Below, in pieces: positions 1,912 to 42,886 of a stretch of DNA of 64,000 nucleotides. Every line of letters starts with the position of its first letter. Position 1 is the first letter of the stretch. The notes under the pieces are model-generated. The model was not told the DNA's origin, made no database searches, and saw only the letters and a program-made list of their open reading frames with translations. The stretch is taken from contig OZ244561.1 of assembly GCA_965217585.1 (NCBI GenBank), forward strand, positions 2,688,001 to 2,752,000. Reading direction: 5' to 3'. The translations under genes and the position numbers were made by a program. The DNA comes from Candidatus Latescibacterota bacterium (GTDB lineage Bacteria > Latescibacterota > UBA2968 > UBA8231).

Positions 1912-1948
1912 GCTCCGCTCCTTCGAGGATTCGCCGGGTGAAATGTGC

Positions 1949-1977: not shown

Positions 1978-2023
1978 TGCATAGACGAGCCACGCGGATC
2001 GCTATGGTAGAGGATGGAGCATC

Positions 2024-5615: not shown

Positions 5616-5642
5616 TCGCGGCCCTCCGCTTCATGCTCTGGC

Positions 5643-8669: not shown

Positions 8670-8831
8670 CGCTTTTTCCTCGGTATCGCCATAAAACTGC
8701 AATTATGGAGTCCAGAAACCATACAAGTCAATCTGCAACGGTTTCGCCGCGATGGCTACTTTAAATCGCGATATTCCCGCCAATTTTGGCGTCGATTAAT
8801 TTATTGCTAACTGAGGAGCCTAGAAAAGCAG

Positions 8832-10370: not shown

Positions 10371-10410
10371 GCCAATCCTCCTTCTGTAGAGCCGAGTTAT
10401 CGGTTCTCCT

Positions 10411-12012: not shown

Positions 12013-12052
12013 GTCCGTCCTCCCAATTGAGTGTGAAGTGTGGTGCCGCTCC

Positions 12053-12196
12053 TCAACTCGCCCCTTCGTCGTGCCACGACATGGCTTCGCCGCGCACGAT
12101 GCGCGAGCGGATCTCGTGGCGTCCGGGCCATTCGACCGGCAAGTCGCCGTTTTCGACCATGTAGTTCAAGGGGTTCACCCGCGTCTTCAAGGGCAC
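12053..12196 (-). pseudogene. orphan C-terminal fragment of a Gfo/Idh/MocA oxidoreductase
   Basis: Translates VPLKTRVNPLNYMVENGDLPVEWPGRHEIRSRIVRGEAMSWHDEGAS*, aligning with the C-terminus of 41711-42799 (LPLQTRANPLDVAVEEGRMPVTRPGHWDERSFLVRGEGMSW). Confidence 0.7.
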
Positions 12197-12211
12197 GGGC
12201 CACTGTTTGCC

Positions 12212-12976: not shown

Positions 12977-13109
12977 TGTCTTGGGGTGTTAAAGCCCTTG
13001 GCGTACCGCTAAAAGTGCCAGCTTGATAAGACGCGCTGGGGCGGTTGCGACCGGTGTGGCGCTAGAGCATGTAATTCGATCCCGTGATTCCATGCCATCC
13101 GGCGGATCC

Positions 13110-27833: not shown

Positions 27834-28823
27834 ATGCCCGTTTGTATTCCCAAAGACGCCAAGCGCATCATGCCGGATCTGTTGCGCGATTTTACTACTG
27901 AAGTGCTGCGCAAAGTCCACTTGCCCGATGGCGATGCTGCGTTGATTGCGCGCTATCTGGTGGATGTGGATTTGCGCGGGGTGGTCTCCCACGGCACGCG
28001 CCAGTTGCAACGGTATGTGGCTGAGTTTCGCGAGGGGCGCATTAACCCACATCCCGAGATTGCCCAAGTCATGGATGCCCCTTCCATGGCGATTTTTGAC
28101 GGCGATGGCGGTGCGGGTTACTTGGTGGCAACGCGGGCGACAGAGGCGGTCATTGAAAAAGCGAAAGCAAATGGCATCGCCGTTGCGTGTACGCGCAATC
28201 ACGGGCATGTGGGCAGCGTGGGAATTTATGCGCGGTTGGCACTGGTACGCGATTTGGCAACCTTTTCCGTGGCAGGGGGTGTCGCTTGGGAAAAACCGAC
28301 GAGCCCCGATGCAACAGTATGGGATGCGATGGGTGCCCCTCCGATGTGTTTTGGCATTCCAACGGCAGAAGGCCCGCCGTTTGTGCTGGATATGAATGCG
28401 AATATGTTGAAGGACCGCAGCAAACTCCCCGAAGCATTGCAGACATTTCCAGATTTTGTTTTCAAGAGTTTGGGAATGCGATTTACATCGTGGTTTTTGG
28501 CGGGCATTTTAGCGGGCACGGCGACCCCTGAATCGCGCAAACCAAAGTTTTCAAGTGCCACGCGGGCATTTACGATGGTGGCGATTGACGTGGCGCGGTT
28601 GGGCGATTTGGAGGCTTATAAGGCAGAGCTTGCTCGCATTTTGCGCGAGAGCCGGTCGCTGAACCCCATGCCGGGACTGGCAAGTGCCGAAGTCCCCGGC
28701 AGCTTGGAGTGGCAACGCGAACGAGCACGCGAGCAAAGCGGGATCCCACTGACTGAAGCATATCTCGACATGTTGCAGCGCATTGCCACAGAGATCAATG
28801 TGCCCGTTCCCTGGGAGTCATAG
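27834..28823 (+). CDS. Ldh_2 family (malate/L-lactate/ureidoglycolate dehydrogenase-like) oxidoreductase
   Basis: DLRGV.SHG, DGDGG.G, RNHGHVG and C-terminal VPG.LE..R.....GIPL. Confidence 0.85.
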   Translation: MPVCIPKDAKRIMPDLLRDFTTEVLRKVHLPDGDAALIARYLVDVDLRGVVSHGTRQLQRYVAEFREGRINPHPEIAQVMDAPSMAIFDGDGGAGYLVATRATEAVIEKAKANGIAVACTRNHGHVGSVGIYARLALVRDLATFSVAGGVAWEKPTSPDATVWDAMGAPPMCFGIPTAEGPPFVLDMNANMLKDRSKLPEALQTFPDFVFKSLGMRFTSWFLAGILAGTATPESRKPKFSSATRAFTMVAIDVARLGDLEAYKAELARILRESRSLNPMPGLASAEVPGSLEWQRERAREQSGIPLTEAYLDMLQRIATEINVPVPWES

Positions 28824-28859
28824 TGGGCGATAACACGGCGATGCGAAGGTCGGTTCTGC

Positions 28860-28967
28860 GTGGTCGGCTTCGGCGGAAGTGAGGGCTGCATGGTCAACGG
28901 CGAGAATCTCCAGCGCGGATCGTAGCTACCCTTCAAAGGCGAGTACGCGCAGCGGAATGGCTGGGCG
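28860..28967. repeat. degenerate copy of 40197-40299 (PhyH 5' end plus cyclase 3' end); left boundary of the island
   Basis: GTGGTCGGCTTCGGCGG...CTACCCTTCAAAGGCGAGTACGCGCAGCGGAATGGC aligns directly with 40197-40299. Confidence 0.85.
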
Positions 28968-29038
28968 GACGGAGTGAGGAAGTGGATTGATCGGAAAACG
29001 GATATGGTCCAAATCACTGTTGTAGATGAGGAAATATT

Positions 29039-31252
29039 ATGAGGATTTCGAGAGAGACGTTGAAGACTGAGGCGGACGCCTTGCGTCAGCGGGCCGAGCC
29101 GATTTGGGCGGCTCTTGAAGATATTCAAGACCGCGAGCTCAACCAGAGAGCTTTCGATAGTTCACTTGAGCACCTTGAACAACAACGCCTTTGCATCACG
29201 GTGATGGGTGAGTTCAACACGGGAAAATCTACTCTCCTCAACACTTTTATCGGAGAGGAACTGCTTCCGACCGACCAATTAGAATGTACGGCAGTGCCGA
29301 CTTGGGTTCGGTGGGCAGACGACGAAAGCCTTGATGAAAATCGACAGGCTACTGTGATTTACGCGGATGGAAGTTCGGATGCTATACCCCTGTCTGAGAT
29401 CAGTGCCCGTACTACCCTTGATCAGGATTCTTGGAAGGAAATTGAACGGGTCGAAATTACTCTACCTAAAGACGAAGGAGAACAAGGACCGACGAACATG
29501 GTGCTCGTAGATACGCCTGGGCTCAACGGCAGTGAGGAGTTGGAGGCACGTAGCAGTCATCAGCTTGGCATGTCTCATGTGACCATTGTCGTGGTTCCCG
29601 TCGATGGGATTGGGCGAAAGAGCGATGTCGATCTAATCAAAAAGGCGTGGTCTATTGCGGACCGTGTCATGGTCGTTATCAACAAGTGCGATCAGCACGT
29701 AAAGACGGGCGATGGCTTTGAGAGGTTTCGGGATGAACTCCGCAGACGGGTTCCCGATCTTCCTCACGAGGCTATTTACACGATCTCTGCCAAATGCGCT
29801 TTCGATGACAACGCCTACCGAGATGAAGAAGATGAACTAAAGAGCGAATTTTGCCGCTTCTACAATGATTTGCGGCAGAATGTTTTAGAGGACCCAACCG
29901 CTGCGTTAAAAAAGCGTCCATTATTACTCCTGCGCGAAATTTGCAAGAAGGAGATCGCTCGCATTGAGAAATTAGAAGCAGAATTCGATACGAGCATTGA
30001 AGCAGCGGAAGCATATCTCGAAGAAGCCCAGGTAAATCTACAACGCTCGCAGGAGAAAATTCTCCAACTTTCGCGTAAGACTTTGATGGGGGAAGTGGAT
30101 ATTTTCCAACACTTTCTGAACGAGGAGCGGTCTCACATCGAACAAAATATGACGAAGTTTGTCGATGAGTTAGATGACGAGTTGCTAAATCGAGATGATC
30201 TGAAAGCGGCGCGACAGTGCGTTTCCAAATGGCTGAACGAAAGCATGCAAGGCGCTATTTTCAATAGGGTTTCTAGCCTGTTAAAGGCAGCGGCGAATCG
30301 ATTGATCTACGACCTTGAAAATCGCGGGCAGGACTCTGCGTTGAATTTGCCCAAGGTGGCTTCTATCAAATTGAACATGGCCCCCTTGAAACAGCAAGCT
30401 GACAAAGCGAGTGAGGCGTTGAGTCGCCGCGAAGACGAAATTGATAGGCTAAAGCAGCAGGTTGCAAGGTGCGAGCGAGCGGTGAAAAAGCGAAAGAAAA
30501 AAGTCGAAACGCTTAGGGAGCAGTCTGCTCAGTTAGAGAATTTAGAAGCGCAACGCAAAAAAGCTGTGAAAGATAAAAGGCAACTTGGGAAGAAACCGAA
30601 TCCAAAAGTGGAAGATTACACTGCTTATGAGACGAGGGAAGTAAAGCGTAGAGGACTGATGAGAATATGGGACTTGTTTTCTACTAAGAAAGAGAGGGTC
30701 CCAGTGAAGCGGCAGCGCAAAAATTATAGCCATGTAAGAAAATGGGAACGCGAGATCGAGGCGGCGGATAAGAAAGTTTCCGGTTTAGAAAAGAAGATCG
30801 CGCCTCTCAAAGACATGCGGAAAGAGATGCAAGAGATCAGAGATGAACTCCCAAAATTGCGGCGGGAAGCTAAGAATACCAAAGCAAAGTTGGAGTGTGC
30901 AGAAAAGTGTCTATTAGAGGAACAGGAAAAGTATCGTCAGGCAGGGATAAAAACCCGACGAGCACAGCTTAAGACAGGTGCCCGAAGGGAGTTGGAAAGT
31001 CTTTTCGATTCACTTCCCGATAGACTTAAAGGGGAGGCTAAGCAAATGCTGAAGGAAATTTCAAGAGATTTCAGTACGCGCTTCAAAGAGGCTGCTGACC
31101 GACAGCACAAATTACTCGCAGACGAGATGGAACAGCGGAAGAAAGAGGCGCGTGCGGCAGATGCCGAACGAGTAAAACGAGAGGGTGTTCGCAAAGCGCT
31201 TGCGGAAGCATTGGAGACTTTTCTCAGTGAAAACCAAGGAGAGAGAACGTGA
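29039..31252 (+). CDS. dynamin-like GTPase 1
   Basis: G1 GEFNTGKS, G2 ECT, G3 DTPG, G4 NKCD, then a long coiled-coil stalk. Confidence 0.9.
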   Translation: MRISRETLKTEADALRQRAEPIWAALEDIQDRELNQRAFDSSLEHLEQQRLCITVMGEFNTGKSTLLNTFIGEELLPTDQLECTAVPTWVRWADDESLDENRQATVIYADGSSDAIPLSEISARTTLDQDSWKEIERVEITLPKDEGEQGPTNMVLVDTPGLNGSEELEARSSHQLGMSHVTIVVVPVDGIGRKSDVDLIKKAWSIADRVMVVINKCDQHVKTGDGFERFRDELRRRVPDLPHEAIYTISAKCAFDDNAYRDEEDELKSEFCRFYNDLRQNVLEDPTAALKKRPLLLLREICKKEIARIEKLEAEFDTSIEAAEAYLEEAQVNLQRSQEKILQLSRKTLMGEVDIFQHFLNEERSHIEQNMTKFVDELDDELLNRDDLKAARQCVSKWLNESMQGAIFNRVSSLLKAAANRLIYDLENRGQDSALNLPKVASIKLNMAPLKQQADKASEALSRREDEIDRLKQQVARCERAVKKRKKKVETLREQSAQLENLEAQRKKAVKDKRQLGKKPNPKVEDYTAYETREVKRRGLMRIWDLFSTKKERVPVKRQRKNYSHVRKWEREIEAADKKVSGLEKKIAPLKDMRKEMQEIRDELPKLRREAKNTKAKLECAEKCLLEEQEKYRQAGIKTRRAQLKTGARRELESLFDSLPDRLKGEAKQMLKEISRDFSTRFKEAADRQHKLLADEMEQRKKEARAADAERVKREGVRKALAEALETFLSENQGERT

Positions 31253-33600
31253 ACATCAAAAATAGATTTGCGGAATTGCGCGACGAAATGGTTGATCTAT
31301 TGAATCGAGCTGCCGCAGTCATGGAGAACGTCGTCCCACACTTAGGCGATGAAAGCGCGAGCAGTCTGCCAAAGACTTTCCAAGAACGGGCCAACACAGT
31401 TCAGAATGAGGAGTTCGTAGTCGTGGTCGTCGGCGAAATGAATCGCGGGAAGTCCGTGCTCCTCAACGCCATGATGCATAAGCAGTTGCTCACAATGGAT
31501 ACGCTTGAGTGTACGGCGACGGTCAATTTTCTTCGACATCCAATTCCGGAAAAAGATCAGTCGCCCGACCGCGTAGAGGTGCATTTTACCAATGGAAAGC
31601 CTCTGGAAAAAGTGCCGGTTGAAAAACTCGCGGATTATACCTCGCGGCTCTCGACTCTCGGTAGTGAGGAGGTGGCAGATTTGGTGGATCATGTAGATGT
31701 CTTTGTTGAATCGCGCTTCCTCAAAGACAATGTATTGCTCGTGGATACTCCGGGAACGAACACAACGACCCATAATCACATTCGGATTACCAACGAACAG
31801 GTCGAGCGTAGTAATGCGGCCATTTTTATTTTTGATGCGGGGACGCAAATGACCCGGTCGGATCGAGAGTTTCTCGAGAGTGTGAAAGAGTCGGTCTCTC
31901 GCCTATTCTTCGTCGTGAACAAAATTGACGATATTGACAAGAATGACATAGACCGGGTTTTGGAGCGCGTGGAGAGCAATATTCACGGGGTGGTGGAGCA
32001 GTCCGAAGTGCGAGTCTTCGGCTTGTCTGGTGCGAAGGCATTGCTCGGGCGCACTGGGTACGTGAAAAATCCGATTTTGGCAGAGAATGAGCGGCATAAG
32101 TTAGACGATCCGCAGTTTTGCAACACTCTGATTGAAGAGTCCCGGATCAATGCCTTTGAGGATGATCTGGAGCGGTATCTTTTTGGTGGTGGCAAGGGCT
32201 ATGATCTCTTGCACAGTCCAATCTCATTCATTCAAATCGAGACTGCAAAGCTCATAGGTAAGTTGCACCGGCAAATTGAGGTTCTCGACGACACATTTGA
32301 TCTGTCCGATCTCGAAATAAAAATAGAAAAGATGGACCGAACTGTTGGAGATCGCAGACGCGAACTCGAAGGCATGACTGATGAACTGTCTGAGGAATTA
32401 TCGCAAGCATTATTGGATGCACAGGGGGCTTTTGAGGAGCGATGCAGGCTAGCGGAAGAAATCCTCAAGGACGATTTCAATGCCTACGACTCGTATGAAG
32501 CACTCGAAGACAACTGGAACGGCGGTGCCCACTTAGCCGAGCTACCGGGCAGAAGTTCCGCGGCACTCGAAAGGCAGGCGGGGAAGTTGTTGCAAGATGC
32601 CGTAAGAAATGTGCTGCGAAAGCAAACGCGAGAGATTCGGAGACAGGTTAGAGGCGAGTTAGGAGAAATCGCTTTGGAACTTCCCGAAATGCCTGAAATG
32701 GTCCTTCAATTGCAGGCACCAAAGAGCGATGAAGCCGAAGAAGCGAAGCTCAAGGAACGTGAGCGAGAAATAGAAGAGATCAACCGAAAGTTGGATCAAC
32801 TAGAGGACCAACAAGCAGGAGGCAGAAACGAACGTCGCTACGTGGAACTACGAGAAGAAAGGCAGCGACTGAGCGAGGAACATCACAGTGAACTCCAACA
32901 TCTCGGCAGTCGCCCTGAAGCGAAAATTAGAAAGGTTGTCGAGGAAGAAGAACAGGATGTTAAGGGGATTGGCGGGTTCGTGGCGTACTTATTTAGGGGG
33001 AAAAAGCGGATACAAATTACCAGAGAAATCGTTGACGACCAAGACCAAGAGGATTATAAAGAGAGGCTGAAGCGCATTGAGACTCAGTATGAGGAGAAAC
33101 TGGCAGAACTCGACCGCGTAACGAAAGAAGCAGAGGAAAAGTACAAGGCCGAGTTGGTGGCGGGACGCAAAGCCGAGAAACTGGAAGAACTCAATCAAAA
33201 TAAGCAGCAGGCATTGGAAAAGGCGGAAAGCCACTATCAGGAGCAATCGGATAAGGCCGGTCAACGCGCTGCCACCTTGAACAAAGTACAGTCGATTAGC
33301 ACTTTCCAACTCGCCGTGGAAACCCTAAAAACTGCTGTGGAGCATTCTGTTGGTCAGACCGAAAATATGGCTACGGATTTCATCGAGAACGCAATGGCTG
33401 AACTCGATGCCACCCTGAAAGCCCACAATCAGGAGTTGGAGAAGCTCAAATCTTTGAAGGAAGTCAAAGAGAGTGAGCGGGACACGGCAAAGGAAGGGAT
33501 TGCGCGGGCAATAGAAGACGTGAAGACCCTGCAAGAGGCGGCGGCGCACGTGGAGAAAGAGCACGAGGCTTTTGCCACAGAATCTGGAGAGGAAAAATAA
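31249..33600 (+). CDS. dynamin-like GTPase 2
   Basis: G1 GEMNRGKS, ECT, DTPG, NKID, ESRI..FE..LE.YL; GTGA overlap with the previous gene. Confidence 0.9.
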   Translation: MNIKNRFAELRDEMVDLLNRAAAVMENVVPHLGDESASSLPKTFQERANTVQNEEFVVVVVGEMNRGKSVLLNAMMHKQLLTMDTLECTATVNFLRHPIPEKDQSPDRVEVHFTNGKPLEKVPVEKLADYTSRLSTLGSEEVADLVDHVDVFVESRFLKDNVLLVDTPGTNTTTHNHIRITNEQVERSNAAIFIFDAGTQMTRSDREFLESVKESVSRLFFVVNKIDDIDKNDIDRVLERVESNIHGVVEQSEVRVFGLSGAKALLGRTGYVKNPILAENERHKLDDPQFCNTLIEESRINAFEDDLERYLFGGGKGYDLLHSPISFIQIETAKLIGKLHRQIEVLDDTFDLSDLEIKIEKMDRTVGDRRRELEGMTDELSEELSQALLDAQGAFEERCRLAEEILKDDFNAYDSYEALEDNWNGGAHLAELPGRSSAALERQAGKLLQDAVRNVLRKQTREIRRQVRGELGEIALELPEMPEMVLQLQAPKSDEAEEAKLKEREREIEEINRKLDQLEDQQAGGRNERRYVELREERQRLSEEHHSELQHLGSRPEAKIRKVVEEEEQDVKGIGGFVAYLFRGKKRIQITREIVDDQDQEDYKERLKRIETQYEEKLAELDRVTKEAEEKYKAELVAGRKAEKLEELNQNKQQALEKAESHYQEQSDKAGQRAATLNKVQSISTFQLAVETLKTAVEHSVGQTENMATDFIENAMAELDATLKAHNQELEKLKSLKEVKESERDTAKEGIARAIEDVKTLQEAAAHVEKEHEAFATESGEEK

Positions 33601-33601
33601 A

Positions 33602-35983
33602 ATGAGCAACGCTATGGAACGCTGGAAAACGATCGTCAAAACACTGGAGGCCGCCGATTTGGACCGTTTGGCGGCTTATGTGCGCGACGAGTCTAATTCT
33701 GCACACGCAGCACTGTTGAGCATCCCTGTCATTGGCGAAACCGGATCGGGAAAGAGCGCGTTGGTTGCTCGTATCTTTGATGTGGAGCCAGCGATTTTTC
33801 CTCAAGATGTCCTCGAATCCACGGCACGCCCAGTGGAAGTCAAGTACGCGCGAACCAGCTATCGTGCCGTGGTGCATGGCGATGACGAATGGGATGAGTG
33901 TGAAGATGACACACATTGGGACGAGCTGGTGCGAGGACGGAAGCCGCTCAGTAGCGGTTCGCGTCTTGAAGTCGGGTTGCAGTGCGAAGATTTGAAGGCT
34001 TGGAACGCGAGTATCGTGGATACGCCCGGCATGAATACCAATACCCCGGAGCTGGAGGGACGCGCTTGGGCTGCAGCCGCTACTGCGCCAGTGGTGATAT
34101 TGACCATTCCCGCGACGAGTACGGGCAGGAGGACTGATATTGATTACTTGGAGAGCTTGGGCGACAACTCGGCGAATGTCGTAATCGCGCTTACAAAAAC
34201 AGATCTGCTTTCTTCAGGTGAAATAGATCGCGTGATAGATGATTTTCGCAATCGCCTTACCAAGTGCGGCATTTCGCCGCTTGGAATACTGCCGACATCG
34301 AGCACCGATGGGAAAGGCATTACAGAGTTGCGGAAGATGCTGGAGGAAGTAACGGGAGAGCGCCGCGAGCAATTGGTCGCGCACCATGTTGGCGGGCGCG
34401 TGGCGGAGAAAATTCAGAGTGAATTGTCGACTCTCCGGCTCAAGCAGACGGCTCTCGAATCCGAGTCAGTGACCACGAGAGAACAAGGCGAGATCGTAGA
34501 GCGCGATATTGTCGCGGAAGGGGCCGATCAAGAGGACGCTCTCAGAAAGGCCACCAACATATTGAAGGATCGCTGTACGCGCCTGCGTCTCGAAGCATTT
34601 AATAACATGCACGAGATCGGCAAGAAAGTTCTCCAAACCATTTCCGATAAGATCGCCCCATTGCAAACATATAGTGAGGTGCAGAGTTTTGCCGAGGACG
34701 CTATTCGCAAATACGTCTTACAGTGGCGGGAGGAGTGTATTGCCACGGCTGAAGATCGCTTGGAGAAGCTCGATCAAGAAGGGATCCAAGTCGCCAAGGA
34801 TGTAGTGTCTCAGCACTTTAATCAGATGGACATTTCAATGGATTGGCTACAAGACCTGCCAGAGGGAAGGGTGTCTCATCGCCCTACTTGGGACTCGACA
34901 TACGAGAATGTGCAACGTTCCCAAGAGGACTTGTTACGCCAAATTGAAGAGTTGCAGAAACACGCTCCAATGGCCGATGAGTTGGAAGCCATTCAACAGG
35001 AACTATCTGTTGCAAAAGAGGATCTTGACGGACTCGAATATGAGCCGCAGATGGATGAGGTTCACCTCGACCAAGGAAAGAGAGAAATTAAAGAAGCTTT
35101 GCGCTGGTCGGGGCAGGCTTTAGACATGGCTTTGACCTTAGCACCTATTCCCACAGGCGGGAAAGTAGGTGTGTTTCTAAAAAATTTACCAAAAGGGAAG
35201 CAGATCATTGGTGGGATCAAAAAGTACAATAAACTCATCGCCGCACGCGACAAATTACTGATAAAGGCCGTGTCCGGTGTTCCGGAGCTACCCAAGCCTA
35301 TGCAGGGAAATCTGCCGACTGCGCCCGGTGGCAAGGTGACAAAAGACGTAGCCCGGGGGTGGTTGATGAAGGCTCTCGATAACTTGTCCCTTGAGACTTG
35401 GGGCGAGCGATTGGGTGGGGTAGTTGGCGACTGGGTTAGCCCGGATAAAGTAGTCGAGATCGAGAATGAAGAGGTGCGTCAAGAGTTTCTCAAGCTCAAA
35501 AAACCCTTTGACGATGAGGTAGTCAGGCTTGAGCACGAACAAGCTAAAATCAAGTCGCGACAGAATCTCCTACAAGACAAACAAATCGAGTGGGAGGACA
35601 AAAAAGAGGAAGCAGCGCGTCTCGAAAAAGAGAGAAGGGATTTGGAGGCAAACCAGCAGCGCTTAGAAGCCGAGGAGAAGGCGACTGCGGCAAAGACGGC
35701 ACTGATGGCACAACTGAGCAGTCAATTTCTCGCCCACGATGGGGATTCGCTCTTCGCGGATGTTCGTCGGGCGGTGAGTGTGGGCTTTGATTCCGCGCGT
35801 GAAGCACTTGAGAACCACCTGCGGGAGCGCGTGAGAGCGATCAAGTCCGAGGTTCAGGCCGCGCTGAAGGAAGCGCGAGCAAAACATGCTCAGGGAGAAG
35901 CGGCTGTCAAAGAAGCTCTTGAAACAAACCAGAAAATGCGTCAGGCCCTTGAGTCCGCATTGTCTCAGTTGGAAGCATTGTGA
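33602..35983 (+). CDS. dynamin-like GTPase 3
   Basis: G1 GETGSGKS, EST, DTPG, TKTD; ATG 1 bp after the previous stop, GAGG RBS. Confidence 0.88.
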   Translation: MSNAMERWKTIVKTLEAADLDRLAAYVRDESNSAHAALLSIPVIGETGSGKSALVARIFDVEPAIFPQDVLESTARPVEVKYARTSYRAVVHGDDEWDECEDDTHWDELVRGRKPLSSGSRLEVGLQCEDLKAWNASIVDTPGMNTNTPELEGRAWAAAATAPVVILTIPATSTGRRTDIDYLESLGDNSANVVIALTKTDLLSSGEIDRVIDDFRNRLTKCGISPLGILPTSSTDGKGITELRKMLEEVTGERREQLVAHHVGGRVAEKIQSELSTLRLKQTALESESVTTREQGEIVERDIVAEGADQEDALRKATNILKDRCTRLRLEAFNNMHEIGKKVLQTISDKIAPLQTYSEVQSFAEDAIRKYVLQWREECIATAEDRLEKLDQEGIQVAKDVVSQHFNQMDISMDWLQDLPEGRVSHRPTWDSTYENVQRSQEDLLRQIEELQKHAPMADELEAIQQELSVAKEDLDGLEYEPQMDEVHLDQGKREIKEALRWSGQALDMALTLAPIPTGGKVGVFLKNLPKGKQIIGGIKKYNKLIAARDKLLIKAVSGVPELPKPMQGNLPTAPGGKVTKDVARGWLMKALDNLSLETWGERLGGVVGDWVSPDKVVEIENEEVRQEFLKLKKPFDDEVVRLEHEQAKIKSRQNLLQDKQIEWEDKKEEAARLEKERRDLEANQQRLEAEEKATAAKTALMAQLSSQFLAHDGDSLFADVRRAVSVGFDSAREALENHLRERVRAIKSEVQAALKEARAKHAQGEAAVKEALETNQKMRQALESALSQLEAL

Positions 35984-36846
35984 GTCAGGGCGCAGAAGCT
36001 CTTTGGGAGCGGGTTCTCGAAAGAGAACGGGGGTTGAAGAGAGTCTTGTCCGACGCCAGTGTAGTCGAGTCGAGCGATGATCCAATTAGTGACAAGCCAC
36101 TTGTGGATTCCGATACTGGGATCGCTGACGATGGGTCTGAACCAGAGACTGATGATCCATTAGCAAATTTCGACCCCGTGATTGACGATGATGAAGCAGA
36201 GGCGGTCGTCGATGTACTCTTCGAGGAATCGGCTGATCTCTGGTTATCGCGGTCGCGTCTCGCGTTGAAACATGCGCTTCAGTCAATGGGCACAGCAAGG
36301 GATGTTCTCCCCATTCGCCGCCCGTTACTGATCTTCTCCTCTCACCGTTCAAAGCTCGCCGCACCCGAGTATCACCGCGTAGAAGTCACGCGAGAGGGTT
36401 GGCCCCGCCGCCTACAATCCACCGAGCCGCTGACAAGCAATGCTGCTGCAAAAACTCTGGCATCTTCCCATTCGATTTCACCGTATTTTGAAGGCGATAC
36501 CGTTGCGGTTGAGGTTCCAAATCCGTTGCTCGCCCGCGATCGATGGATCGTTTTATGGCCAGAGTTGAATGACCTCCCCGACCCGGCGGAGTTTCAGCAA
36601 TGGCGGCAAGTGCGCCGGGTCGTGTGGTGTGTCAAGAGAGATCAAATAGGACCTCGAGATGTCATTAATTGGCTTTCTCGCTCTTGGCCAGACATCCCCA
36701 TTCGCATAGCACTCTTTAGAGCAGCATCGTTTGTTCACGGGGAAAGGGACATGGAAGCAAAACTAAAGAAGCTGTCGGGGGTTCGTCGCGCACTTGAAAA
36801 ATTCGATAGAATTAAAAGCCATCCTTGGATCGTGGTGGGGCCATAA
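35980..36846 (+). CDS. hypothetical protein, possible inactive dynamin-type GTPase fold
   Basis: GTGA overlap; acidic N-terminus; VEVPNPLLARDRWIVLWPELND resembles the dynamin segment leading into DTPG; no P-loop. Confidence 0.7.
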   Translation: MSQGAEALWERVLERERGLKRVLSDASVVESSDDPISDKPLVDSDTGIADDGSEPETDDPLANFDPVIDDDEAEAVVDVLFEESADLWLSRSRLALKHALQSMGTARDVLPIRRPLLIFSSHRSKLAAPEYHRVEVTREGWPRRLQSTEPLTSNAAAKTLASSHSISPYFEGDTVAVEVPNPLLARDRWIVLWPELNDLPDPAEFQQWRQVRRVVWCVKRDQIGPRDVINWLSRSWPDIPIRIALFRAASFVHGERDMEAKLKKLSGVRRALEKFDRIKSHPWIVVGP

Positions 36847-37472
36847 TGACGACGTGGGCAAAAAATCCTTCCGAGTTTCTCGCGTTCCTCAACGGTCTTG
36901 ACAGTCGCGATGCCTTTTCAAAAAGCCAGCGTTTCCCAGTCGTTAGGTCCACCAATGCAAATACCGAGATAAAAAAGCCGCCACTAGAAGCTCAAAACGA
37001 CGTTCTCGCACTGGTGTACGAAATTTTGGGGGTTTTGAGGAAGGGAGGAACGAAAAAAAGACCATCCGCGAGAAACTTACTGAATGTTCCCCAAGTAGAT
37101 GAGTTTTTTTCAAAAGCAACTCAGGCGATGGTCGAGGCGGCGAGTCGACAGAACTCGCCACTGCAAAAGGCGATAGAAGGTCTCGTCACAGAAGCCTATA
37201 TCGAACGAATCCGAATTGAATTTGTCGGCGAATTGGCGCGTTCCCTCAAGGTATTTCGAGTACGCCTCACAAAAGATCGTGCAAAAGACGATGACTGGCA
37301 GGATGAGTTGGATAGCGGAGTCGTGCTGTACGATGTCTTTCGGCCAAATCTATGGGATATTTATCGGGAGCTATGGGACAAATGGCAGGCTGATATGGTA
37401 CGTATCCGCGATCTAGCTACACACGTACAGTGCATCGACAAAACGTTAAAAGGAGAGGAGACAAACTCTTGA
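36846..37472 (+). CDS. hypothetical helical protein of the dynamin operon
   Basis: TAATG overlap with the upstream gene and TTGA overlap downstream; same composition as the island. Confidence 0.75.
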   Translation: MTTWAKNPSEFLAFLNGLDSRDAFSKSQRFPVVRSTNANTEIKKPPLEAQNDVLALVYEILGVLRKGGTKKRPSARNLLNVPQVDEFFSKATQAMVEAASRQNSPLQKAIEGLVTEAYIERIRIEFVGELARSLKVFRVRLTKDRAKDDDWQDELDSGVVLYDVFRPNLWDIYRELWDKWQADMVRIRDLATHVQCIDKTLKGEETNS

Positions 37473-38452
37473 AGAAAACGGTGTTATTTGCATTCGGCGC
37501 TGTGTTCCCCTTGGTCGCCTTGGCTGTTTTAACCATCGTCATGCCCCCTGTCGGAACGTGGGCTATTGTGATGGGGCTTGCTGTAGTCGCCGGGGTACTT
37601 TCAGCGCAGGCCGGACAGGAACTGGTTCAGTTACTCTTGAGCATTCGCAAAGGGCTCGGGGAAGCAAACAAAGAAGCCAAAGCGGCGCAAAGCGAGGCAA
37701 ACAAAATTCTCGCGGAACGGTTCGAGCGTTTTGTAGAGGAATACGGACAGCGAGACGAAGACTGGCGCACCAAAACGCTGGCCGAGTGGCAAGCCGTGAG
37801 GCAAGCGTTGGATTCGTCTTTTGAAAAGATGTTATCGGATGTTCGCTCGCATCTCGCAACACTGGCCGAGCAAGAGCGAGCATGGCAAGAAGAAGCGGTG
37901 CAATCGAGAACCGAGGCCATGCAGGCTGAAGCGAAACAAGCACGCAGTGAATTTGCACAGTTCTGCGAGGCGACGAAAGAAGCGGTAGAACAACACGCAG
38001 CCGTAATTCAAGCGACGCAAAAGACCATTGAGAACGTTGAGGATCATTTCGCCAAGCAGCAGGCGAACGCACTCACTGAGTGGCAAGCCGTGACGCAGGC
38101 GTTGGCTTCGTCTTTTGAGAAGAATCTTGCAGCACTGGCCGAGCGAGAGCGAGTATTGCAAGAAAAAGCGGCGCAAGAGAGAACCGAGGCCATTGATGCT
38201 GAGTTGGCACAAGTAAAAGAAACTTTTGCACTGGTTGAAGATACCCGCAACAAACTCAATGCAGAATTTGAAAAGGTGATTGGGGAGCTTCGCGCACTCG
38301 TTAAAAAAGAGACGCAAAGGCAGGAGGAGCAAAAGAGCGCCGACCGCGATCACCTCGAAAAAATGTTGGAAGTTCAACAAAAGGCCCATGACGAAGCAGA
38401 AGAACGCTCCGGGCAACTGTGGTGCCATTTGCTCGATCAGTTAAAAAGTTAA
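37469..38452 (+). CDS. 2-TM membrane-anchored coiled-coil protein with an internal repeat
   Basis: GAGGAG RBS and TTG start; two N-terminal hydrophobic helices; duplicated EWQAV.QAL.SSFEK...RTEA unit. Confidence 0.8.
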   Translation: MKKTVLFAFGAVFPLVALAVLTIVMPPVGTWAIVMGLAVVAGVLSAQAGQELVQLLLSIRKGLGEANKEAKAAQSEANKILAERFERFVEEYGQRDEDWRTKTLAEWQAVRQALDSSFEKMLSDVRSHLATLAEQERAWQEEAVQSRTEAMQAEAKQARSEFAQFCEATKEAVEQHAAVIQATQKTIENVEDHFAKQQANALTEWQAVTQALASSFEKNLAALAERERVLQEKAAQERTEAIDAELAQVKETFALVEDTRNKLNAEFEKVIGELRALVKKETQRQEEQKSADRDHLEKMLEVQQKAHDEAEERSGQLWCHLLDQLKS

Positions 38453-38859
38453 TGGCTATCCTACATGAACGGCTGCATTCGGAACTTGCCACAACCGAGT
38501 TGAAGGCGGTACTGGCCGAAGATCCAAGGCTGACAAGTCTCGTGGAAAATACGCTGCGCCGTGCGCGGGAACTGGTTGAGCAAAGGCGGGTGCTAGAGGC
38601 GCAAGTCTGGCTAGCGGGAATCACGGCGATCGTCGAACGCTGTCGCCGCGAGCGCATTGCCGCCAAACAGCGTCAAGAAGAGCGCATTGCCACTCTAGTA
38701 GCGAATCTCGGAAGCAACCCCCCGGCCAAAGGTCTCGGCGAACTACTCTCCCATGCGGCAACCCTTCAGCCCGACGTCACCGGCAAGCTCCTCGATGTAG
38801 TAGAAAGTGCGCTGACGGGTGCTGATCCGGGCATACCCCATAGACGACGGACTCGCTAA
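38452..38859 (+). CDS. hypothetical protein, last gene of the dynamin operon
   Basis: TAATG overlap; helical, 135 aa; ends 10 bp before the boundary repeat. Confidence 0.65.
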   Translation: MAILHERLHSELATTELKAVLAEDPRLTSLVENTLRRARELVEQRRVLEAQVWLAGITAIVERCRRERIAAKQRQEERIATLVANLGSNPPAKGLGELLSHAATLQPDVTGKLLDVVESALTGADPGIPHRRRTR

Positions 38860-38868
38860 GCGGACGCT

Positions 38869-38984
38869 CTACCCTTCAAAAGCGAGCACGCGCAGCGGAA
38901 TGGCGTCGGTTCCAGCCGCCGGTAGCGGCTGGGCAAAAAGGTAAACGCGGGGTTGTAGTAGGTCGCCTAAGCGGTCTAGGCTCT
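38869..38984. repeat. degenerate copy of the cyclase gene 3' end (40264-40379); right boundary of the island
   Basis: CTACCCTTCAAAAGCGAG...CCTAAGCGGTCTAGGCTCT aligns with 40264-40379. Confidence 0.9.
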
Positions 38985-39023
38985 TAAACAGGATTATCTA
39001 GATCGTCGTAAGGAGTACGCACC

Positions 39024-39209
39024 ATGAGTGATGTAGAAAAGTATATTGCAGAAAGAAAGAAGACCGATCCTGAGTTTGCAGAAGGCTTTGAGGAAGGATA
39101 TAAGGAATTCGAATTCGGCGTTTTGCTGCGTCAAGCCAAGGAGGAATCCGGCTTAACGCAGGAGCAACTCGCCAAGTTAATGCACACTAGCGGACACGGC
39201 GACACCTGA
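39024..39209 (+). pseudogene. truncated HigA-like XRE HTH antitoxin, preceded by a possible toxin C-terminal remnant
   Basis: MSDVEKYI..RK..DPEFAEGFEEGY..F..GVLLRQA.EE.GLTQEQLA breaks off before the recognition helix, where the Ldh repeat starts. Upstream KQDYLDRRKEYAP* overlaps it via ATGA. Confidence 0.75.
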
Positions 39210-39367
39210 ATCGCGCAAACCAAAATTTTCAAGTGCCACGCGGGCATTTACGATTGTGGCGATTGACGTGGCGCAATTGGGCGATCGACATGTTGCAGCG
39301 CATTGCCACGGAGATCAATGTCCCCGTTCCCTGGGAGTCATAAACGGACAATAACACGGCGATGCGA
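39188..39367. repeat. degenerate, internally deleted copy of the Ldh_2 gene 3' end and its downstream spacer (28510-28846)
   Basis: TAGCGG.CACGGCGAC.CCTGAATCGCGCAAACC...GGGCGAT joined to CGACATGTTGCAGCG...TAACACGGCGATGCGA; 28608-28765 is missing from the copy. Confidence 0.9.
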
Positions 39368-39374
39368 GAGAAGG

Positions 39375-40229
39375 TTAAAGACCGTACCACTCTCTCGGGG
39401 CCGTAGGGTGAAAGTCATAGCGCTCGACGCCGAGCGCCTGAAGAACGCCGCGCTCGACGAGAGAAAAGTCGGCAGGATCCTCGCGGTTGAAGCGTAGGGG
39501 TTTTTTGAGGGCGACAGGGGGATTGGTCATGAAGCGGGGGCGACCCGAGTGATTGGGGGAGGAGGCATGGAGGGTAAAAGGGTGGAGAAGGGTCAGATCG
39601 CCGGTCTGGCCGGTAAGCTCAATGAAGTCTTGGCACTGGTCGATGAGAAAGCTACAGGCCCCCGGATCGACGCCCTCGGGATGGTCGGCGAGGTAGCGGG
39701 CAACGTGTCTGAAGGAATCGCAGGCGACGAAGGTGCCGCCGGACTTGGGAGGGGTATCGGTCCATTGGAGGACGACCAATAGGGCTTGTTCGGGGCTGTC
39801 TAAGAAATGGCGGAAGAAGCTGCCGTCCTTGTGCCAGTGGGCCGTGTTGGAGGCCGGGGGTTGCCAAGGGGTATCGGCACCATAGTGGAAGTTGATGATG
39901 AAAGCGTCGGACCAGTGGAAGGATTCGACCGAAGAGAAATGCTTGGTTTCTAGTCGGCGAATGGCGAGATCGATGCGGTCCTCGCCGCCGAGTACATCGC
40001 AGGTCGCGCCCCAAGCTCGGGGGCAAAGGTCCTTCACTTTGAATCTGTGAGCGTGATCTAAGTAGCGGATCGGCTCGGTCCAGGTGGCGGGATCTTCGGG
40101 GTCGTAGCCCAAGCGCTCATAGGCGTGGTCAATGAGCGGCTGGGCGAAGTCGCGGGTGAAGCAGCCGGGGATGGTGACGTAGCCCTTGGCGAGAAAGTGG
40201 TCGGCTTCGGCGGGCGTGAGGGTTTGCAT
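39375..40229 (-). CDS. phytanoyl-CoA dioxygenase (PhyH) family protein
   Basis: HFLAKGYV, WHKD, GGT and LHASSPN...PRFMTN; start MQTLTPAE. Confidence 0.85.
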   Translation of the reverse strand: MQTLTPAEADHFLAKGYVTIPGCFTRDFAQPLIDHAYERLGYDPEDPATWTEPIRYLDHAHRFKVKDLCPRAWGATCDVLGGEDRIDLAIRRLETKHFSSVESFHWSDAFIINFHYGADTPWQPPASNTAHWHKDGSFFRHFLDSPEQALLVVLQWTDTPPKSGGTFVACDSFRHVARYLADHPEGVDPGACSFLIDQCQDFIELTGQTGDLTLLHPFTLHASSPNHSGRPRFMTNPPVALKKPLRFNREDPADFSLVERGVLQALGVERYDFHPTAPREWYGL

Positions 40230-40263
40230 GGCCAACGGCGGGAATCTCCAGTGCGGACCACAG

Positions 40264-40929
40264 CTACCCTTCAAAAGCGAGTACGCGCAGCGGAATGGCG
40301 TCGGTTTCGGCTGCCGGTAGCGGCTGGGCGAAAAGGTAAACGCGCGGTTGTCGCAGGTCTCCTAAGCGGTCCAGGCTCTCGATTAGGGGAATGCCGTGCG
40401 CGAAGAGCAGGTGGTGGTTGGGCAGGCTGCGGTCGCCCGGAATGTCTAGGCCGGGCGTGTCGATGCCGACCAGTTTGACGCCTGCCTCGACGAGCCAGCG
40501 CAAGGCTGCGGTCGAGGGGTAAGGCGGATAGGCACCAGCGGTAGCCCGTTGATCCCAGTCAAAGCGAAAAAGTGCGATGTCCCTCGGGCGGACGCCTCCA
40601 CCTGGGTCGGCGGCCCGTTGGAGTTGCTCCGGTGAAAGCGGCTCGCCCAGCGGGGCATCACTAAAGTCGAAGACGATCGCCTCGCCGAAAAAGCGCTCGA
40701 CATCGAGGTCGGCGATGGCTGGGCCGTCTTGTACGGCGTGTAAAGGCCCTTCGACATGGGTACCGGCGTGCCCGCCCATGTCGATGCTGGTGGTGATATA
40801 CCAGCGGTCGGTCGGCGGGTCGTCAACGGGTACGCGCACCGTGCGGTAGTGGATGAGGCGACCTTCCGACGGAGTGATGGTCCGCGAAAGATCTACCATG
40901 CGGCTGTAGGCGAAGGAGGGGACCTTCAC
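40264..40929 (-). CDS. cyclase family protein (kynurenine formamidase-like metal-dependent hydrolase)
   Basis: VDLSR, H.GTHVEGP.H, VGIDT, H..L...GIPLIE and P.RVLA. Confidence 0.88.
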   Translation of the reverse strand: MKVPSFAYSRMVDLSRTITPSEGRLIHYRTVRVPVDDPPTDRWYITTSIDMGGHAGTHVEGPLHAVQDGPAIADLDVERFFGEAIVFDFSDAPLGEPLSPEQLQRAADPGGGVRPRDIALFRFDWDQRATAGAYPPYPSTAALRWLVEAGVKLVGIDTPGLDIPGDRSLPNHHLLFAHGIPLIESLDRLGDLRQPRVYLFAQPLPAAETDAIPLRVLAFEG

Positions 40930-42861: not shown

Positions 42862-42886
42862 GGGCAACCACAGGGGTTGCCCCTAC
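42862..42886 (-). repeat. GTAG-type REP-like palindrome
   Basis: Minus strand reads GTAGGGGCAACCCCTGTGGTTGCCC: GTAG followed by a hairpin. Confidence 0.6.

What the first reader, a model, noticed from the sequence alone, without database searches (positions are those of the whole stretch)
29039..38859. Seven-gene operon with three dynamin-like GTPases: candidate undescribed defence or membrane-remodelling system
Seen: three consecutive 737-793 aa proteins each with complete G1-G4 motifs and long coiled coils, then a GTPase-like relic, an unknown, a 2-TM coiled-coil protein and another unknown. All junctions overlap or are 1 bp apart (GTGA, +1, GTGA, TAATG, TTGA, TAATG). The DNA is lower in GC than its flanks and sits next to a TA remnant. 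Established: characterised bacterial dynamin loci mostly have two GTPase units (B. subtilis DynA fusion, Campylobacter DLP1/2, mycobacterial IniA/C, E. coli LeoABC), and DynA and the LeoABC-type Eleos system protect against phage. Inference: a hetero-oligomeric dynamin machine with a dedicated membrane anchor and accessory subunits, plausibly anti-phage. I do not recognise this architecture as a named system.
Basis: partly seen in the sequence, partly recalled or inferred. Interest (0 to 1): 0.9.

Follow-up and report, generated by a model that had tools for sequence, protein, structure and literature searches.

The report
Three-dynamin operon with dead dynamin pieces
A rare, horizontally acquired seven-gene block in an uncultured Latescibacterota genome encodes three working dynamin-like GTPases plus four always-linked helpers, one of which is a dynamin GTPase domain that has lost its nucleotide-binding motifs; it looks like a new kind of bacterial membrane-remodelling machine, possibly for phage defence, but its function is untested.

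Summary
Seven co-directional, overlapping or abutting ORFs fill 29039-38859. The first three are Dynamin_N proteins with intact G1, G3 and G4 motifs.

All seven genes recur in the same order in 4 other Latescibacterota genomes. That is 5 of 168 genomes in the phylum and 4 of 31 in the genus.

In this genus the block is a ~10.5 kb low-GC indel. Elsewhere the two flanking genes lie 23-45 bp apart.

New here:
- g4 folds as a dynamin-superfamily G domain (Z 11.6 to BDLP; ranks 1-13 all dynamin-family). It has no Walker A or NKxD in 0 of 12 relatives, so it is a pseudo-GTPase.
- g5 models as a helical bundle whose best match is the Campylobacter DLP1 trunk. This is suggestive only.
- Only g6 has transmembrane helices.
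- No PADLOC system matches. The LeoBC hits are generic to dynamin-like proteins.

A defence role is plausible but unproven. Support is fast evolution, an integration hotspot, and TIR and methylase neighbours in the one independent context.

Verdict: a real, rare new variant of bacterial dynamin systems.

The parts
29039..31252 (+). g1, dynamin-like GTPase (737 aa), no TM segment; nearest solved relative by sequence is Campylobacter Cj-DLP2
   Evidence: Dynamin_N 1.1e-17. G1/G3/G4 intact in 5 of 5 orthologues. PDB 5owv_C 1.1e-12. No hydrophobic window of KD 1.0 or more.
31249..33600 (+). g2, dynamin-like GTPase (783 aa), BDLP/Cj-DLP1-like G domain, very acidic (net charge -51)
   Evidence: Dynamin_N 5.3e-23. 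PDB 2j68_A 5.7e-16 and 5owv_A 5.4e-10. Motifs intact in 5 of 5. Charge.
33602..35983 (+). g3, divergent third dynamin-like GTPase (793 aa from ATG; 803 aa from TTG at 33572), with a mildly hydrophobic, Gly/Lys-rich tip around residues 518-560 of the 803-aa reading
   Evidence: Dynamin_N 1.3e-9. No PDB hit as a single sequence; the profile hits 5owv_C at 1.1e-3. Motifs intact in 12 of 12. 39 database clusters, all 49% identity or more. Tip hydropathy.
35980..36846 (+). g4, three parts: N-terminal helix, disordered acidic linker with repeated short acidic/aromatic motifs in variable copy number, and a C-terminal dynamin-type G-domain fold without nucleotide-binding motifs (pseudo-GTPase)
   Evidence: AF2 model has pLDDT about 90 over residues 76-288. 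VIA-align top hits: BDLP Z 11.6, Fzo1 11.5, Cj-DLP2 11.3, MFN2 10.8, IniA 10.7. 0 of 12 sequences have Walker A or a conserved NKxD. Only 13 representatives in 1.84 billion proteins. Repeats seen.
36846..37472 (+). g5, 208-aa all-helical bundle with a low-confidence N-terminal 41 residues; resembles a dynamin trunk/stalk bundle
   Evidence: AF2 pLDDT 72, helices 47-206. Best VIA match is Cj-DLP1 residues 514-677: Z 11.5, rmsd 2.6 A, 135 aligned. A designed bundle scores Z 11.0. No Pfam, PADLOC or NCBIfam hit. 54 clusters, all 42% identity or more.
37469..38452 (+). g6, N-terminal two-TM hairpin followed by about 270 residues of charged helix with an internal duplication; the only integral membrane protein of the set
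   Evidence: KD19 peaks of 2.60 and 2.03. Internal repeat is 57% identical over 60 aa, E 1.7e-15; DNA repeats D3 and D6. Weak hits to the LeoBC C-terminus in 2 of 5 orthologues and to ZorA3 in 3 of 5 are treated as noise.
38452..38859 (+). g7, 135-aa protein of unknown fold, the most conserved of the seven (75-87% identity)
   Evidence: Alignment A5. dN/dS 0.23-0.24. 63 clusters, none named. No PDB relative. Interrupted by an IS in one genome.
28824..29038 (.). left boundary and upstream region of the insert: copies of sequence that also lies at 39346-39376 and 40197-40299, then about 77 nt unique with a purine-rich ribosome-binding site
   Evidence: Repeats D4, D7 and D9. Sequence read. No consensus promoter found. 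Upstream regions are poorly conserved between genomes.
38860..39376 (.). right boundary debris: copy of the 3' end of the cyclase gene, a truncated HTH_31 ORF (39024-39209), and copies of two pieces of the Ldh_2 gene
   Evidence: Repeats D1, D2, D5 and D7. HTH_31 3.8e-6.

Best explanation
The block is a self-contained, horizontally acquired module that builds a hetero-oligomeric dynamin-like machine at the cytoplasmic membrane.

Shown:
- Three paralogous but deeply diverged dynamin-like GTPases (g1-g3) have intact catalytic motifs and no transmembrane segment.
- A stand-alone dynamin-type G domain (g4) has lost every nucleotide-binding motif. It carries an acidic tail with repeated short motifs.
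- There is a helical-bundle protein (g5), a two-TM coiled-coil protein (g6) and a small conserved protein (g7).
- All seven are inherited and lost together.

Inferred:
- g6 anchors the assembly in the membrane.
- The three active GTPases pair through their G domains and stalks, as known bacterial DLP pairs do. GTP-driven conformational change then tethers, seals or deforms membrane.
- The pseudo-G domain of g4 occupies a G-domain dimer interface. It thereby gates the dimerisation-dependent GTPase activity until a trigger arrives.
- Its acidic motifs act as docking peptides.

The most likely biological role is a conflict or defence function: membrane surveillance or repair against phage or other envelope attack, as for B. 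subtilis DynA and the two-gene LeoA/LeoBC system. I give that role roughly 0.45 on its own. The structural reading (one conserved multi-subunit dynamin system containing a pseudo-GTPase) I hold at about 0.85.
For: Conservation:
- Seven ORFs are translationally coupled.
- They are 1:1 orthologues in identical order in 5 of 5 loci, from two taxonomic families, at 43-87% identity.

The three GTPases:
- Dynamin_N is above its cut-off for g1-g3.
- G1/G3/G4 are intact in 5/5, 5/5 and 12/12 sequences.
- The paralogues share only about 26% identity, and only in the G domain.
- g1 is nearest to Cj-DLP2. g2 is nearest to BDLP and Cj-DLP1, the two halves of a known heterotypic pair.

Accessory genes:
- g4 folds as a dynamin G domain (Z 11.6-10.5 for six bacterial or mitofusin-type DLPs; ranks 1-13 are all dynamin superfamily). 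It has 0 of 12 Walker A motifs.
- g5's best structural match is the Cj-DLP1 trunk.
- TM helices occur only in g6.

Accessory, mobile nature:
- 5 of 168 phylum genomes and 4 of 31 genus genomes carry it.
- In the phylum the g2 profile finds only the 5 operon genomes plus 2 others with an unrelated 639-aa DLP.
- In G005 and G010 the flanking Ldh_2 and cyclase genes are 45 and 23 bp apart.
- GC is 0.51 against about 0.60-0.63 in the flanks.
- Flank duplications and an HTH remnant lie at the borders.

Conflict-like signals:
- dN/dS is 0.23-0.60 against 0.07-0.24 in the flanks, at similar dS.
- The same hotspot in G019 holds a 40%-GC insert with an HSDR_N_2 nuclease-domain ORF.
- In G025 the operon lies within about 8 kb of a ResIII helicase and a ThsB-like TIR protein. 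It is bracketed by two DNA methylases.

Precedent, from passages read:
- The two-gene dynamin system protects against jumbo phages, and P-loop mutants abolish protection.
- LeoC and LeoB are a dynamin split into two genes.
Against: - No experiment and no expression data exist. No RNA holder was listed.
- Only two independent genomic contexts could be read. In the window's own genus the neighbours are metabolic genes (Ldh_2, cyclase, Gfo/Idh/MocA oxidoreductases).
- No PADLOC model other than generic LeoA/LeoBC hits any of the seven proteins.
- Elevated dN/dS is also expected for coiled-coil proteins under relaxed constraint.
- The proposed g4-to-G-domain docking is pure inference. The complex prediction could not be run.
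- Sequence profiles show no similarity between g4-g7 and g1-g3.
- The g5 match is within the range that helical bundles reach by chance (note).
- The stalk architecture of g1-g3 was not modelled.
Confidence: 0.45

Rival explanations
1. The same seven-protein dynamin machine serves a physiological membrane-remodelling task rather than defence. Examples are repair after abiotic or antibiotic envelope stress, vesicle release, or niche-specific membrane dynamics in a subset of strains.
For: - Characterised bacterial DLPs act in sporulation septation, vesicle release, membrane repair and drug tolerance (passages; listing).
- In the window's genus the neighbours are metabolic genes.
- No known defence protein family other than generic dynamin models matches.
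- An SPFH-family membrane protein lies 4 kb downstream.
Against: - The distribution is patchy: 5 of 168 genomes.
- The block is a clean indel at a hotspot that elsewhere holds a low-GC nuclease-domain gene.
- GC is lower than in the flanks.
- dN/dS is 3-5 times that of the flanks.
- The neighbours in G025 are a TIR protein and methylases.

None of these excludes an accessory physiological role.
Confidence: 0.35
2. It is simply a diverged member of the known Eleos (LeoA + LeoBC) anti-phage system with passenger genes attached.
For: PADLOC LeoBC hits for g1, g2 and g3 (1.6e-14, 9e-12, 6.1e-8) and a LeoA hit for g1 (8.1e-13).
Against: - An unrelated fourth dynamin of the same genome hits LeoBC at 7.8e-10, so the hit is superfamily-level.
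- The LeoA hit covers one short stretch.
- Among solved structures, LeoA ranks far below BDLP, Cj-DLP2 and IniA for g4 (Z 7.5 against 10.7-11.6). It does not appear among the sequence hits of g1-g3.
- There are three GTPases, not two.
- None of the three has the hydrophobic paddle or anchor described for LeoB and LeoC.
- The four extra genes are conserved, under purifying selection, and never missing in the loci read.
Confidence: 0.1
3. g4-g7 are unrelated passengers or spurious ORFs that do not work with the dynamins.
For: No family annotation for g4-g7. No sequence-profile similarity to g1-g3.
Against: - They are conserved in order in 5 of 5 loci.
- dN/dS is 0.23-0.60.
- The stop and start codons overlap.
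- The g4 fold model is confident and is a dynamin G domain.
- g3, g4, g5 and g7 homologues share contigs in the protein collection, judged by identical longest-contig lengths. This is an indirect proxy.
Confidence: 0.03

Closest known systems
Eleos / LeoABC (two-gene dynamin anti-phage system; E. coli ETEC LeoA, LeoB, LeoC)
   Same: - Operon of several dynamin-like GTPases on an accessory island.
- P-loop GTPases with helical stalks.
- Precedent for a dynamin split into separate genes (LeoC + LeoB).
- Weak PADLOC LeoBC and LeoA hits.
- Passages read.
   Different: - Three full GTPases instead of two.
- No hydrophobic paddle or anchor in any GTPase.
- The membrane anchor is a separate gene.
- An extra pseudo-G-domain protein and two further conserved proteins.
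- The LeoBC hit is generic.
- The LeoC/LeoB split keeps the catalytic motifs, whereas g4 has none.
Campylobacter jejuni DLP1/DLP2 heterotypic pair (PDB 5owv)
   Same: - g1 is nearest in sequence to Cj-DLP2. g2 hits BDLP1 and Cj-DLP1.
- g4's G domain and g5's bundle both match chains of this entry.
- Side-by-side genes; activity is expected to need heterotypic assembly.
   Different: - The Cj operon has two DLPs plus a beta-lactamase-like gene.
- It has no third DLP, no pseudo-G domain and no TM partner.
- Identities here are low, and the matches cover only G domains.
Bacillus subtilis DynA (two DLPs fused; membrane repair and phage protection)
   Same: - Multi-headed dynamin acting at the cytoplasmic membrane.
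- Delays phage-induced lysis (abstract seen in the listing).
- The proposed working principle is the same.
   Different: - DynA is one fused housekeeping gene.
- The NCBIfam DynA model scores 29.8 and 36.6 bits against a cut-off of 1600.
- No accessory subunits are described in what I read.
Nostoc BDLP1 and multi-DLP cyanobacteria; mycobacterial IniA/IniC
   Same: - BDLP1 is the best structural match of g4 and the best sequence match of g2.
- IniA also matches.
- Up to 8 DLPs per genome have been noted as hinting at multicomponent complexes.
   Different: In the passages I read, none of these is reported with three tandem DLPs plus a stand-alone pseudo-G domain and a separate TM anchor in one operon.
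Helicobacter pylori genomic island annotated with three DLP helical-superfamily proteins and GTPases (PMC8935386)
   Same: An accessory island carrying three or more dynamin-related genes together with small GTPase ORFs (passage). The language-model look-alikes of g4 are small dynamin-domain proteins, commonest in Campylobacterota. This is a lead only (score 0.88).
   Different: - Known only as annotation.
- That island sits in a Leo-type context with a putative enterotoxin-output gene.
- Homology to this operon was not tested.
Eukaryotic DRP-like pseudoenzyme acting with MICOS (bioRxiv 10.1101/2023.10.03.560745)
   Same: A dynamin-related protein without catalytic activity that shapes membrane together with partners. 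Only the title and the start of the abstract were seen.
   Different: Eukaryotic and mitochondrial, and a full-length protein. No evolutionary link is claimed.

Membership tests
Dynamin superfamily (g1, g2, g3) | Dynamin-type G domain above the Pfam gathering score | tested here: met
   PF00350 scores 65, 82.3 and 38.7 bits against a cut-off of 27.
Dynamin superfamily (g1, g2, g3) | Intact G1 (P-loop), G3 (DxxG) and G4 ([NT]KxD) motifs | tested here: met
   Regex over the orthologue alignments finds them in 5/5, 5/5 and 12/12 sequences. G2 was not examined.
Dynamin superfamily (g1, g2, g3) | Helical neck/trunk (stalk) following the G domain | tested here: inconclusive
   There are long charged helix-like segments by a composition proxy. 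LeoBC profile alignments reach profile position about 430 of 601. No structure was predicted for g1-g3.
Dynamin superfamily (g1, g2, g3) | Membrane-binding paddle or anchor | tested here: inconclusive
   No TM-strength window lies outside the G core. g3 has a mildly hydrophobic tip (KD 1.02-1.43). g1 and g2 have short hydrophobic/basic tips.
Dynamin G-domain fold (g4) | Three-dimensional fold of a dynamin-type G domain | tested here: met
   Model pLDDT is about 90 over residues 76-288. Z is 11.6 to BDLP and 11.3 to Cj-DLP2. Ranks 1-13 are all dynamin superfamily, with small GTPases below.
Active GTPase (g4) | Walker A / G4 nucleotide-binding motifs | tested here: not met
   0 of 12 family members have [AG]xxxxGK[ST] or GK[ST]. 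There is no conserved [NT]KxD. g4 is therefore called a pseudo-GTPase.
Eleos (LeoA + LeoBC) | Two-gene LeoA + LeoBC architecture | tested here: not met
   There are three full DLPs plus four further conserved genes.
Eleos (LeoA + LeoBC) | Specific similarity to the LeoA and LeoBC models | tested here: inconclusive
   LeoBC hits are 1.6e-14 to 6.1e-8 and the LeoA hit for g1 is 8.1e-13. An unrelated DLP of the same genome also hits LeoBC at 7.8e-10. PADLOC's own system caller could not be run.
Eleos (LeoA + LeoBC) | Protection against phage that depends on the P-loops | not testable with these tools
   Needs an experiment.
B. subtilis DynA (NF052648) and E. coli CrfC (NF007368) | Score above the NCBIfam equivalog cut-off | tested here: not met
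   DynA scores 29.8 and 36.6 bits against 1600. CrfC scores 22.3 and 33.6 bits against 1146.
Dynamin stalk/trunk bundle (g5) | Structural match to a DLP trunk standing clear of unrelated helical bundles | tested here: inconclusive
   The top hit is Cj-DLP1 residues 514-677 (Z 11.5, rmsd 2.6 A, 135 aligned). A designed bundle scores Z 11.0, and helical models often reach Z 13 by chance. There is no profile similarity.

The most novel reading that the evidence does not exclude
The four downstream genes may be the colinear pieces of a fourth dynamin that was broken up and catalytically silenced. The pieces run in gene order:
- g4, the G domain;
- g5, the first stalk bundle;
- g6, the membrane hairpin ('paddle') plus returning helices;
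- g7, the C-terminal element.

On this reading they reassemble non-covalently into a membrane-embedded pseudo-dynamin. That assembly nucleates and gates three active dynamins, and the whole is a new class of anti-phage or anti-envelope-attack system. It would be the first bacterial case of pseudo-GTPase control of a dynamin machine.
Probability: 0.2. Interest if true: 0.85.

Novelty: new variant of a known kind. Interest (0 to 1): 0.62.

Why it matters
Bacterial dynamins are known mostly as pairs, and how they are recruited and switched on is open. This operon is a natural, conserved case of three active dynamins encoded with a dedicated membrane anchor and a stand-alone dynamin G domain that can no longer bind nucleotide.

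If the pseudo-G domain caps or templates the G-domain interface, it gives a directly testable handle on how dimerisation-dependent GTPase activity is gated. That mechanism would be relevant to mitofusin, OPA1 and Mx biology.

If the system protects against phage, it extends dynamin-based immunity beyond the two-gene Eleos type. It would also add four protein families with no annotation. These families are very rare: 13 representatives of g4 in 1.84 billion proteins.

Tried and rejected
Context searches that found nothing new:
- A JGI metagenome contig scan with the g4 alignment found no relative, and so did a scan with the distant g4 homologue P0016.
- A viral contig scan found none.
- tblastn of g2 found only distant generic dynamins: 3 plasmid records and 1 phage record, at 25-30% identity.
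- The genome-contig scan with g4 found only 3 loci, all Latescibacterota MAGs already covered.

Family and structure-database searches:
- PDB sequence or profile searches for g4, g5 and g7 gave nothing significant.
- hhalign of every accessory alignment against g1-g3 and against each other gave nothing. The best was g6 against the g3 C-terminus, at probability about 10%.
- The g6 similarity to the LeoBC C-terminus was seen in only 2 of 5 orthologues, and 3 of 5 hit the ZorA coiled coil. I treat it as noise.
- The ESM Atlas look-alike search for g5 gave no usable hit. For g4 the scores were below 0.9, so they are a lead only.

Regulation and expression:
- The promoter and terminator scan found fewer sites than in shuffled sequence. 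Rfam found nothing.
- No RNA holder was listed among sequencing runs.

Tools that did not run:
- Complex prediction (three G domains plus the g4 C-terminal domain) never entered the queue. There is no result of any kind.
- Foldseek 'pdb' was busy, so pdb_via_wide was used instead.
Identical longest-contig lengths served only as an indirect proxy for co-occurrence.

Data handling:
- One dN/dS row (dn_281 against L027, dN 1.83) was dropped as an off-frame coordinate artefact.

Literature searches:
- Searches for a described three-dynamin operon, a pseudo-GTPase with bacterial dynamins, or dynamins in Latescibacteria found nothing that matches. The closest was an annotation-level H. pylori island.
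- Supplements are closed. Table S5 of the Millman preprint lists variants of the dynamin system and could bear on novelty.


Full report
1. WHAT IS THERE

The window is G000:C1:2688001-2752000, a single 7.3-Mb contig. Related public records are titled MAG: Candidatus Latescibacterota.

Between 29039 and 38859 lie seven co-directional ORFs. Their stops and starts overlap or abut. This was read from the coordinates and the first codons printed:
- g1/g2 and g3/g4 overlap by 4 nt.
- The g3 ATG at 33602 follows the g2 stop by one base.
- The g5 ATG at 36846, the g6 TTG at 37469 and the g7 ATG at 38452 each overlap the preceding stop.

The database copies of g3 (793 aa) and g5 (208 aa) use these same starts. 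GC is 0.47-0.55 inside against 0.57-0.67 outside. Over 8-kb flanks it is 0.511 against 0.595 and 0.625.

2. THE THREE GTPASES

g1, g2 and g3 pass the Pfam Dynamin_N cut-off. They carry G1, G3 and G4 motifs that are invariant in 5/5, 5/5 and 12/12 orthologues.

They are old paralogues, about 26% identical and only across the G domain. By sequence:
- g1 is nearest to Campylobacter Cj-DLP2 (5owv_C, 1.1e-12).
- g2 is nearest to Nostoc BDLP (5.7e-16) and Cj-DLP1 (5.4e-10).
- g3 has no solved relative as a single sequence. As a profile it gives only a 1.1e-3 hit to Cj-DLP2.

None has a transmembrane-strength segment. g3 has a mildly hydrophobic Gly/Lys-rich tip, and g1 and g2 have short hydrophobic/basic tips between long charged helices.

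NCBIfam equivalogs for DynA and CrfC are missed by more than an order of magnitude in score.

3. THE FOUR DOWNSTREAM GENES

None has a Pfam, NCBIfam or meaningful PADLOC hit.

g4 consists of three parts:
- a conserved N-terminal helix;
- a disordered acidic linker with short acidic/aromatic motifs, repeated one to about five times depending on the genome;
- a C-terminal domain.

AlphaFold2 on a 12-sequence alignment gives pLDDT around 90 for residues 76-288. This model was aligned to 48,161 PDB representatives. Ranks 1-13 are all dynamin-superfamily G domains:
- BDLP: Z 11.6, rmsd 4.5 A, 192 aligned.
- Fzo1: Z 11.5.
- Cj-DLP2: Z 11.3, rmsd 3.5 A, 168 aligned.
- MFN2: Z 10.8.
- IniA: Z 10.7.
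- SynDLP: Z 10.5.
- Then MxB, Mgm1, EHD4, OPA1 and dynamin 1.
- Rag, EngB and Ras-type GTPases come below.

Yet 0 of 12 family members has a Walker A motif or a conserved [NT]KxD. Profile comparison with g1-g3 finds nothing. g4 is best called a dynamin-type pseudo-GTPase.

g5 models as a helical bundle (pLDDT 72). Its top match is the trunk of Cj-DLP1, residues 514-677 (Z 11.5, rmsd 2.6 A over 135 residues). The MxB stalk, dynamin, SynDLP, Drp1 and Mgm1 also appear lower down. A designed bundle scores Z 11.0, and the tool warns that helical models reach such values by chance. I treat this as suggestive.

g6 has two strong TM helices at its N-terminus. These are followed by about 270 residues of charged helix with an internal duplication, 57% identical over 60 aa. 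Its weak LeoBC C-terminal hit is not reproducible across orthologues: 2 of 5 hit LeoBC and 3 of 5 hit the ZorA coiled coil.

g7 is small, of unknown fold, and the most conserved of the seven.

4. CONSERVATION AND DISTRIBUTION

The g5 protein and the g4 profile each find the same 5 of 168 Latescibacterota species genomes. These are G000, three more of 30 in its genus, and one of 31 in another family.

All five loci carry all seven genes in the same order, as 1:1 orthologues at 43-87% identity. In G007, g7 is interrupted by a DDE-transposase IS.

The g2 profile finds no other close relative in the phylum. Only two genomes have an unrelated 639-aa DLP.

In very large protein collections the families are tiny and unnamed:
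- g4: 13 representatives among 1.84 billion.
- g3: 39 clusters, all 49% identity or more.
- g5: 54 clusters.
- g7: 63 clusters.

Many of these clusters list the same longest-contig length. For example, one 4,719,565-bp contig appears for g3, g4, g5 and g7. This suggests co-occurrence down to about 50% identity. It is an indirect proxy, and absences in it mean nothing.

dN/dS is 0.23-0.60 for all seven genes, so all are coding and constrained.

5. AN ACQUIRED INSERT

I examined five genus genomes that lack the operon. All keep the flanking genes.
- In G005 and G010 the convergent Ldh_2 and cyclase genes are 45 and 23 bp apart.
- G001 and G002 hold remnants of a PhyH gene there.
- G019 holds a 1,458-bp, 40%-GC insert with a 320-aa ORF. 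That ORF reaches the Pfam HSDR_N_2 cut-off exactly, at 25.0 bits.

In G000 the borders carry duplicated pieces of the Ldh_2, PhyH and cyclase genes and a truncated HTH_31 ORF.

Synonymous divergence of operon genes (0.19-0.68) is similar to, or somewhat above, that of the flanks (0.27-0.53). dN/dS is 3-5 times higher than in the metabolic flanks, which give 0.07-0.16, and 0.20-0.24 for the SPFH gene. This fits one acquisition in a sub-lineage of the genus followed by fast protein evolution.

The only independent context is G025. There the operon sits downstream of a ResIII helicase, a ThsB-like TIR protein (Pfam 4.2e-19; PADLOC ThsB 2.2e-8), an 8xMP membrane protein, a type II/III methylase and an amine oxidase. 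It is followed by a Dam-type methylase.

6. HOW IT PROBABLY WORKS

Shown: three catalytically competent DLPs without anchors, one anchor protein, and one nucleotide-blind dynamin G domain, all inherited as a unit.

From established knowledge:
- Bacterial DLPs mostly work as heterotypic pairs whose GTPase activity needs G-domain dimerisation.
- Cj-DLP1 and Cj-DLP2 are inactive alone.
- LeoC plus LeoB shows that a dynamin can be split between genes.
- DynA and the two-gene Leo-type system protect against phage. For the latter, P-loop mutations abolish defence (abstract).

Inferred:
- g6 holds the assembly at the membrane.
- g1-g3 form a hetero-oligomer that tethers, seals or deforms membrane on GTP turnover.
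- g4 docks on a G-domain interface and gates activity. Its acidic motifs act as docking peptides.
- g5 and g7 are structural adaptors.

A bolder reading notes that the gene order g4-g5-g6-g7 (G domain, helical bundle, membrane hairpin plus helices, C-terminal piece) is colinear with a BDLP. On that reading the four genes are a fragmented, silenced fourth dynamin. The evidence is strong for g4, moderate for g5, and absent for g6 and g7.

7. COMPARISON AND NOVELTY

This is not an Eleos member by architecture. The LeoBC and LeoA hits are superfamily-level, because the genome's unrelated fourth DLP also hits LeoBC.

Literature searches found no description of such an operon. They also found no pseudo-GTPase partner for bacterial dynamins. 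The closest were an H. pylori island annotated with three DLP-related genes (passage) and a eukaryotic DRP-like pseudoenzyme (listing). Supplementary tables could not be read. Table S5 of the Millman preprint may list variants.

8. VERDICT

It is a new variant of a known kind. Its notable component is the stand-alone dynamin pseudo-GTPase.

The complex prediction, the wider gene-neighbourhood census and all experiments remain to be done.

Noticed in passing
window 43917-47814 (+): A bacterial Hen1 RNA 3'-end 2'-O-methyltransferase (665.8 bits, cut-off 340) sits next to a polynucleotide kinase-phosphatase Pnkp (1316.7 bits, cut-off 750). Together they are the RNA-repair pair. They lie 5 kb downstream of the operon and outside the indel.
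   Followed up: partly
window 28510-28961, 38869-39376 and 40197-40379: A patchwork of direct repeats (91-97% identical) copies pieces of the Ldh_2 gene, the start of the PhyH gene and the 3' end of the cyclase gene on both sides of the operon. This points to recombination at an integration hotspot.
   Followed up: partly
L038 (G019) 1635-3092: At the same Ldh_2/cyclase hotspot, another genome of the genus carries a 1,458-bp, 40%-GC insert. Its 320-aa ORF has an HSDR_N_2 (type I restriction R, N-terminal nuclease-like) domain exactly at the Pfam cut-off.
   Followed up: partly
L011 (G007) 7782-8714 and 5368-7005: A DDE transposase IS interrupts g7 in G007. A 545-aa AAA/STAND-like ATPase is inserted between the two genes that flank the operon downstream. 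No PADLOC hit was found for the ATPase.
   Followed up: partly
L040 (G025) 10044-14221: An 861-aa ResIII helicase lies next to a 134-aa ThsB-like TIR protein and an 8xMP octameric membrane protein, 3-8 kb upstream of the G025 copy of the operon. This may be an unclassified TIR defence module.
   Followed up: no
G000:C1 about 3054235-3056460 (L003:127-2352, minus strand): A fourth, unlinked 741-aa dynamin-family protein is in the same genome. Its first 50 residues give weak hits to HTH-type PADLOC models (HTH_VI 1.2e-5) and its C-terminal half hits LeoBC.
   Followed up: partly
window 36070-36210 (g4 residues about 30-75) and orthologues: The acidic linker of g4 carries a short acidic/aromatic motif whose copy number varies from one to about five between genomes. 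G007 has a tandem 13-residue repeat.
   Followed up: partly
window 42883-43797 (-): A 304-aa SPFH/HflC-like membrane protein (weak HflC hit, 1e-6) evolves faster than its neighbours, with dN/dS 0.20-0.24.
   Followed up: no
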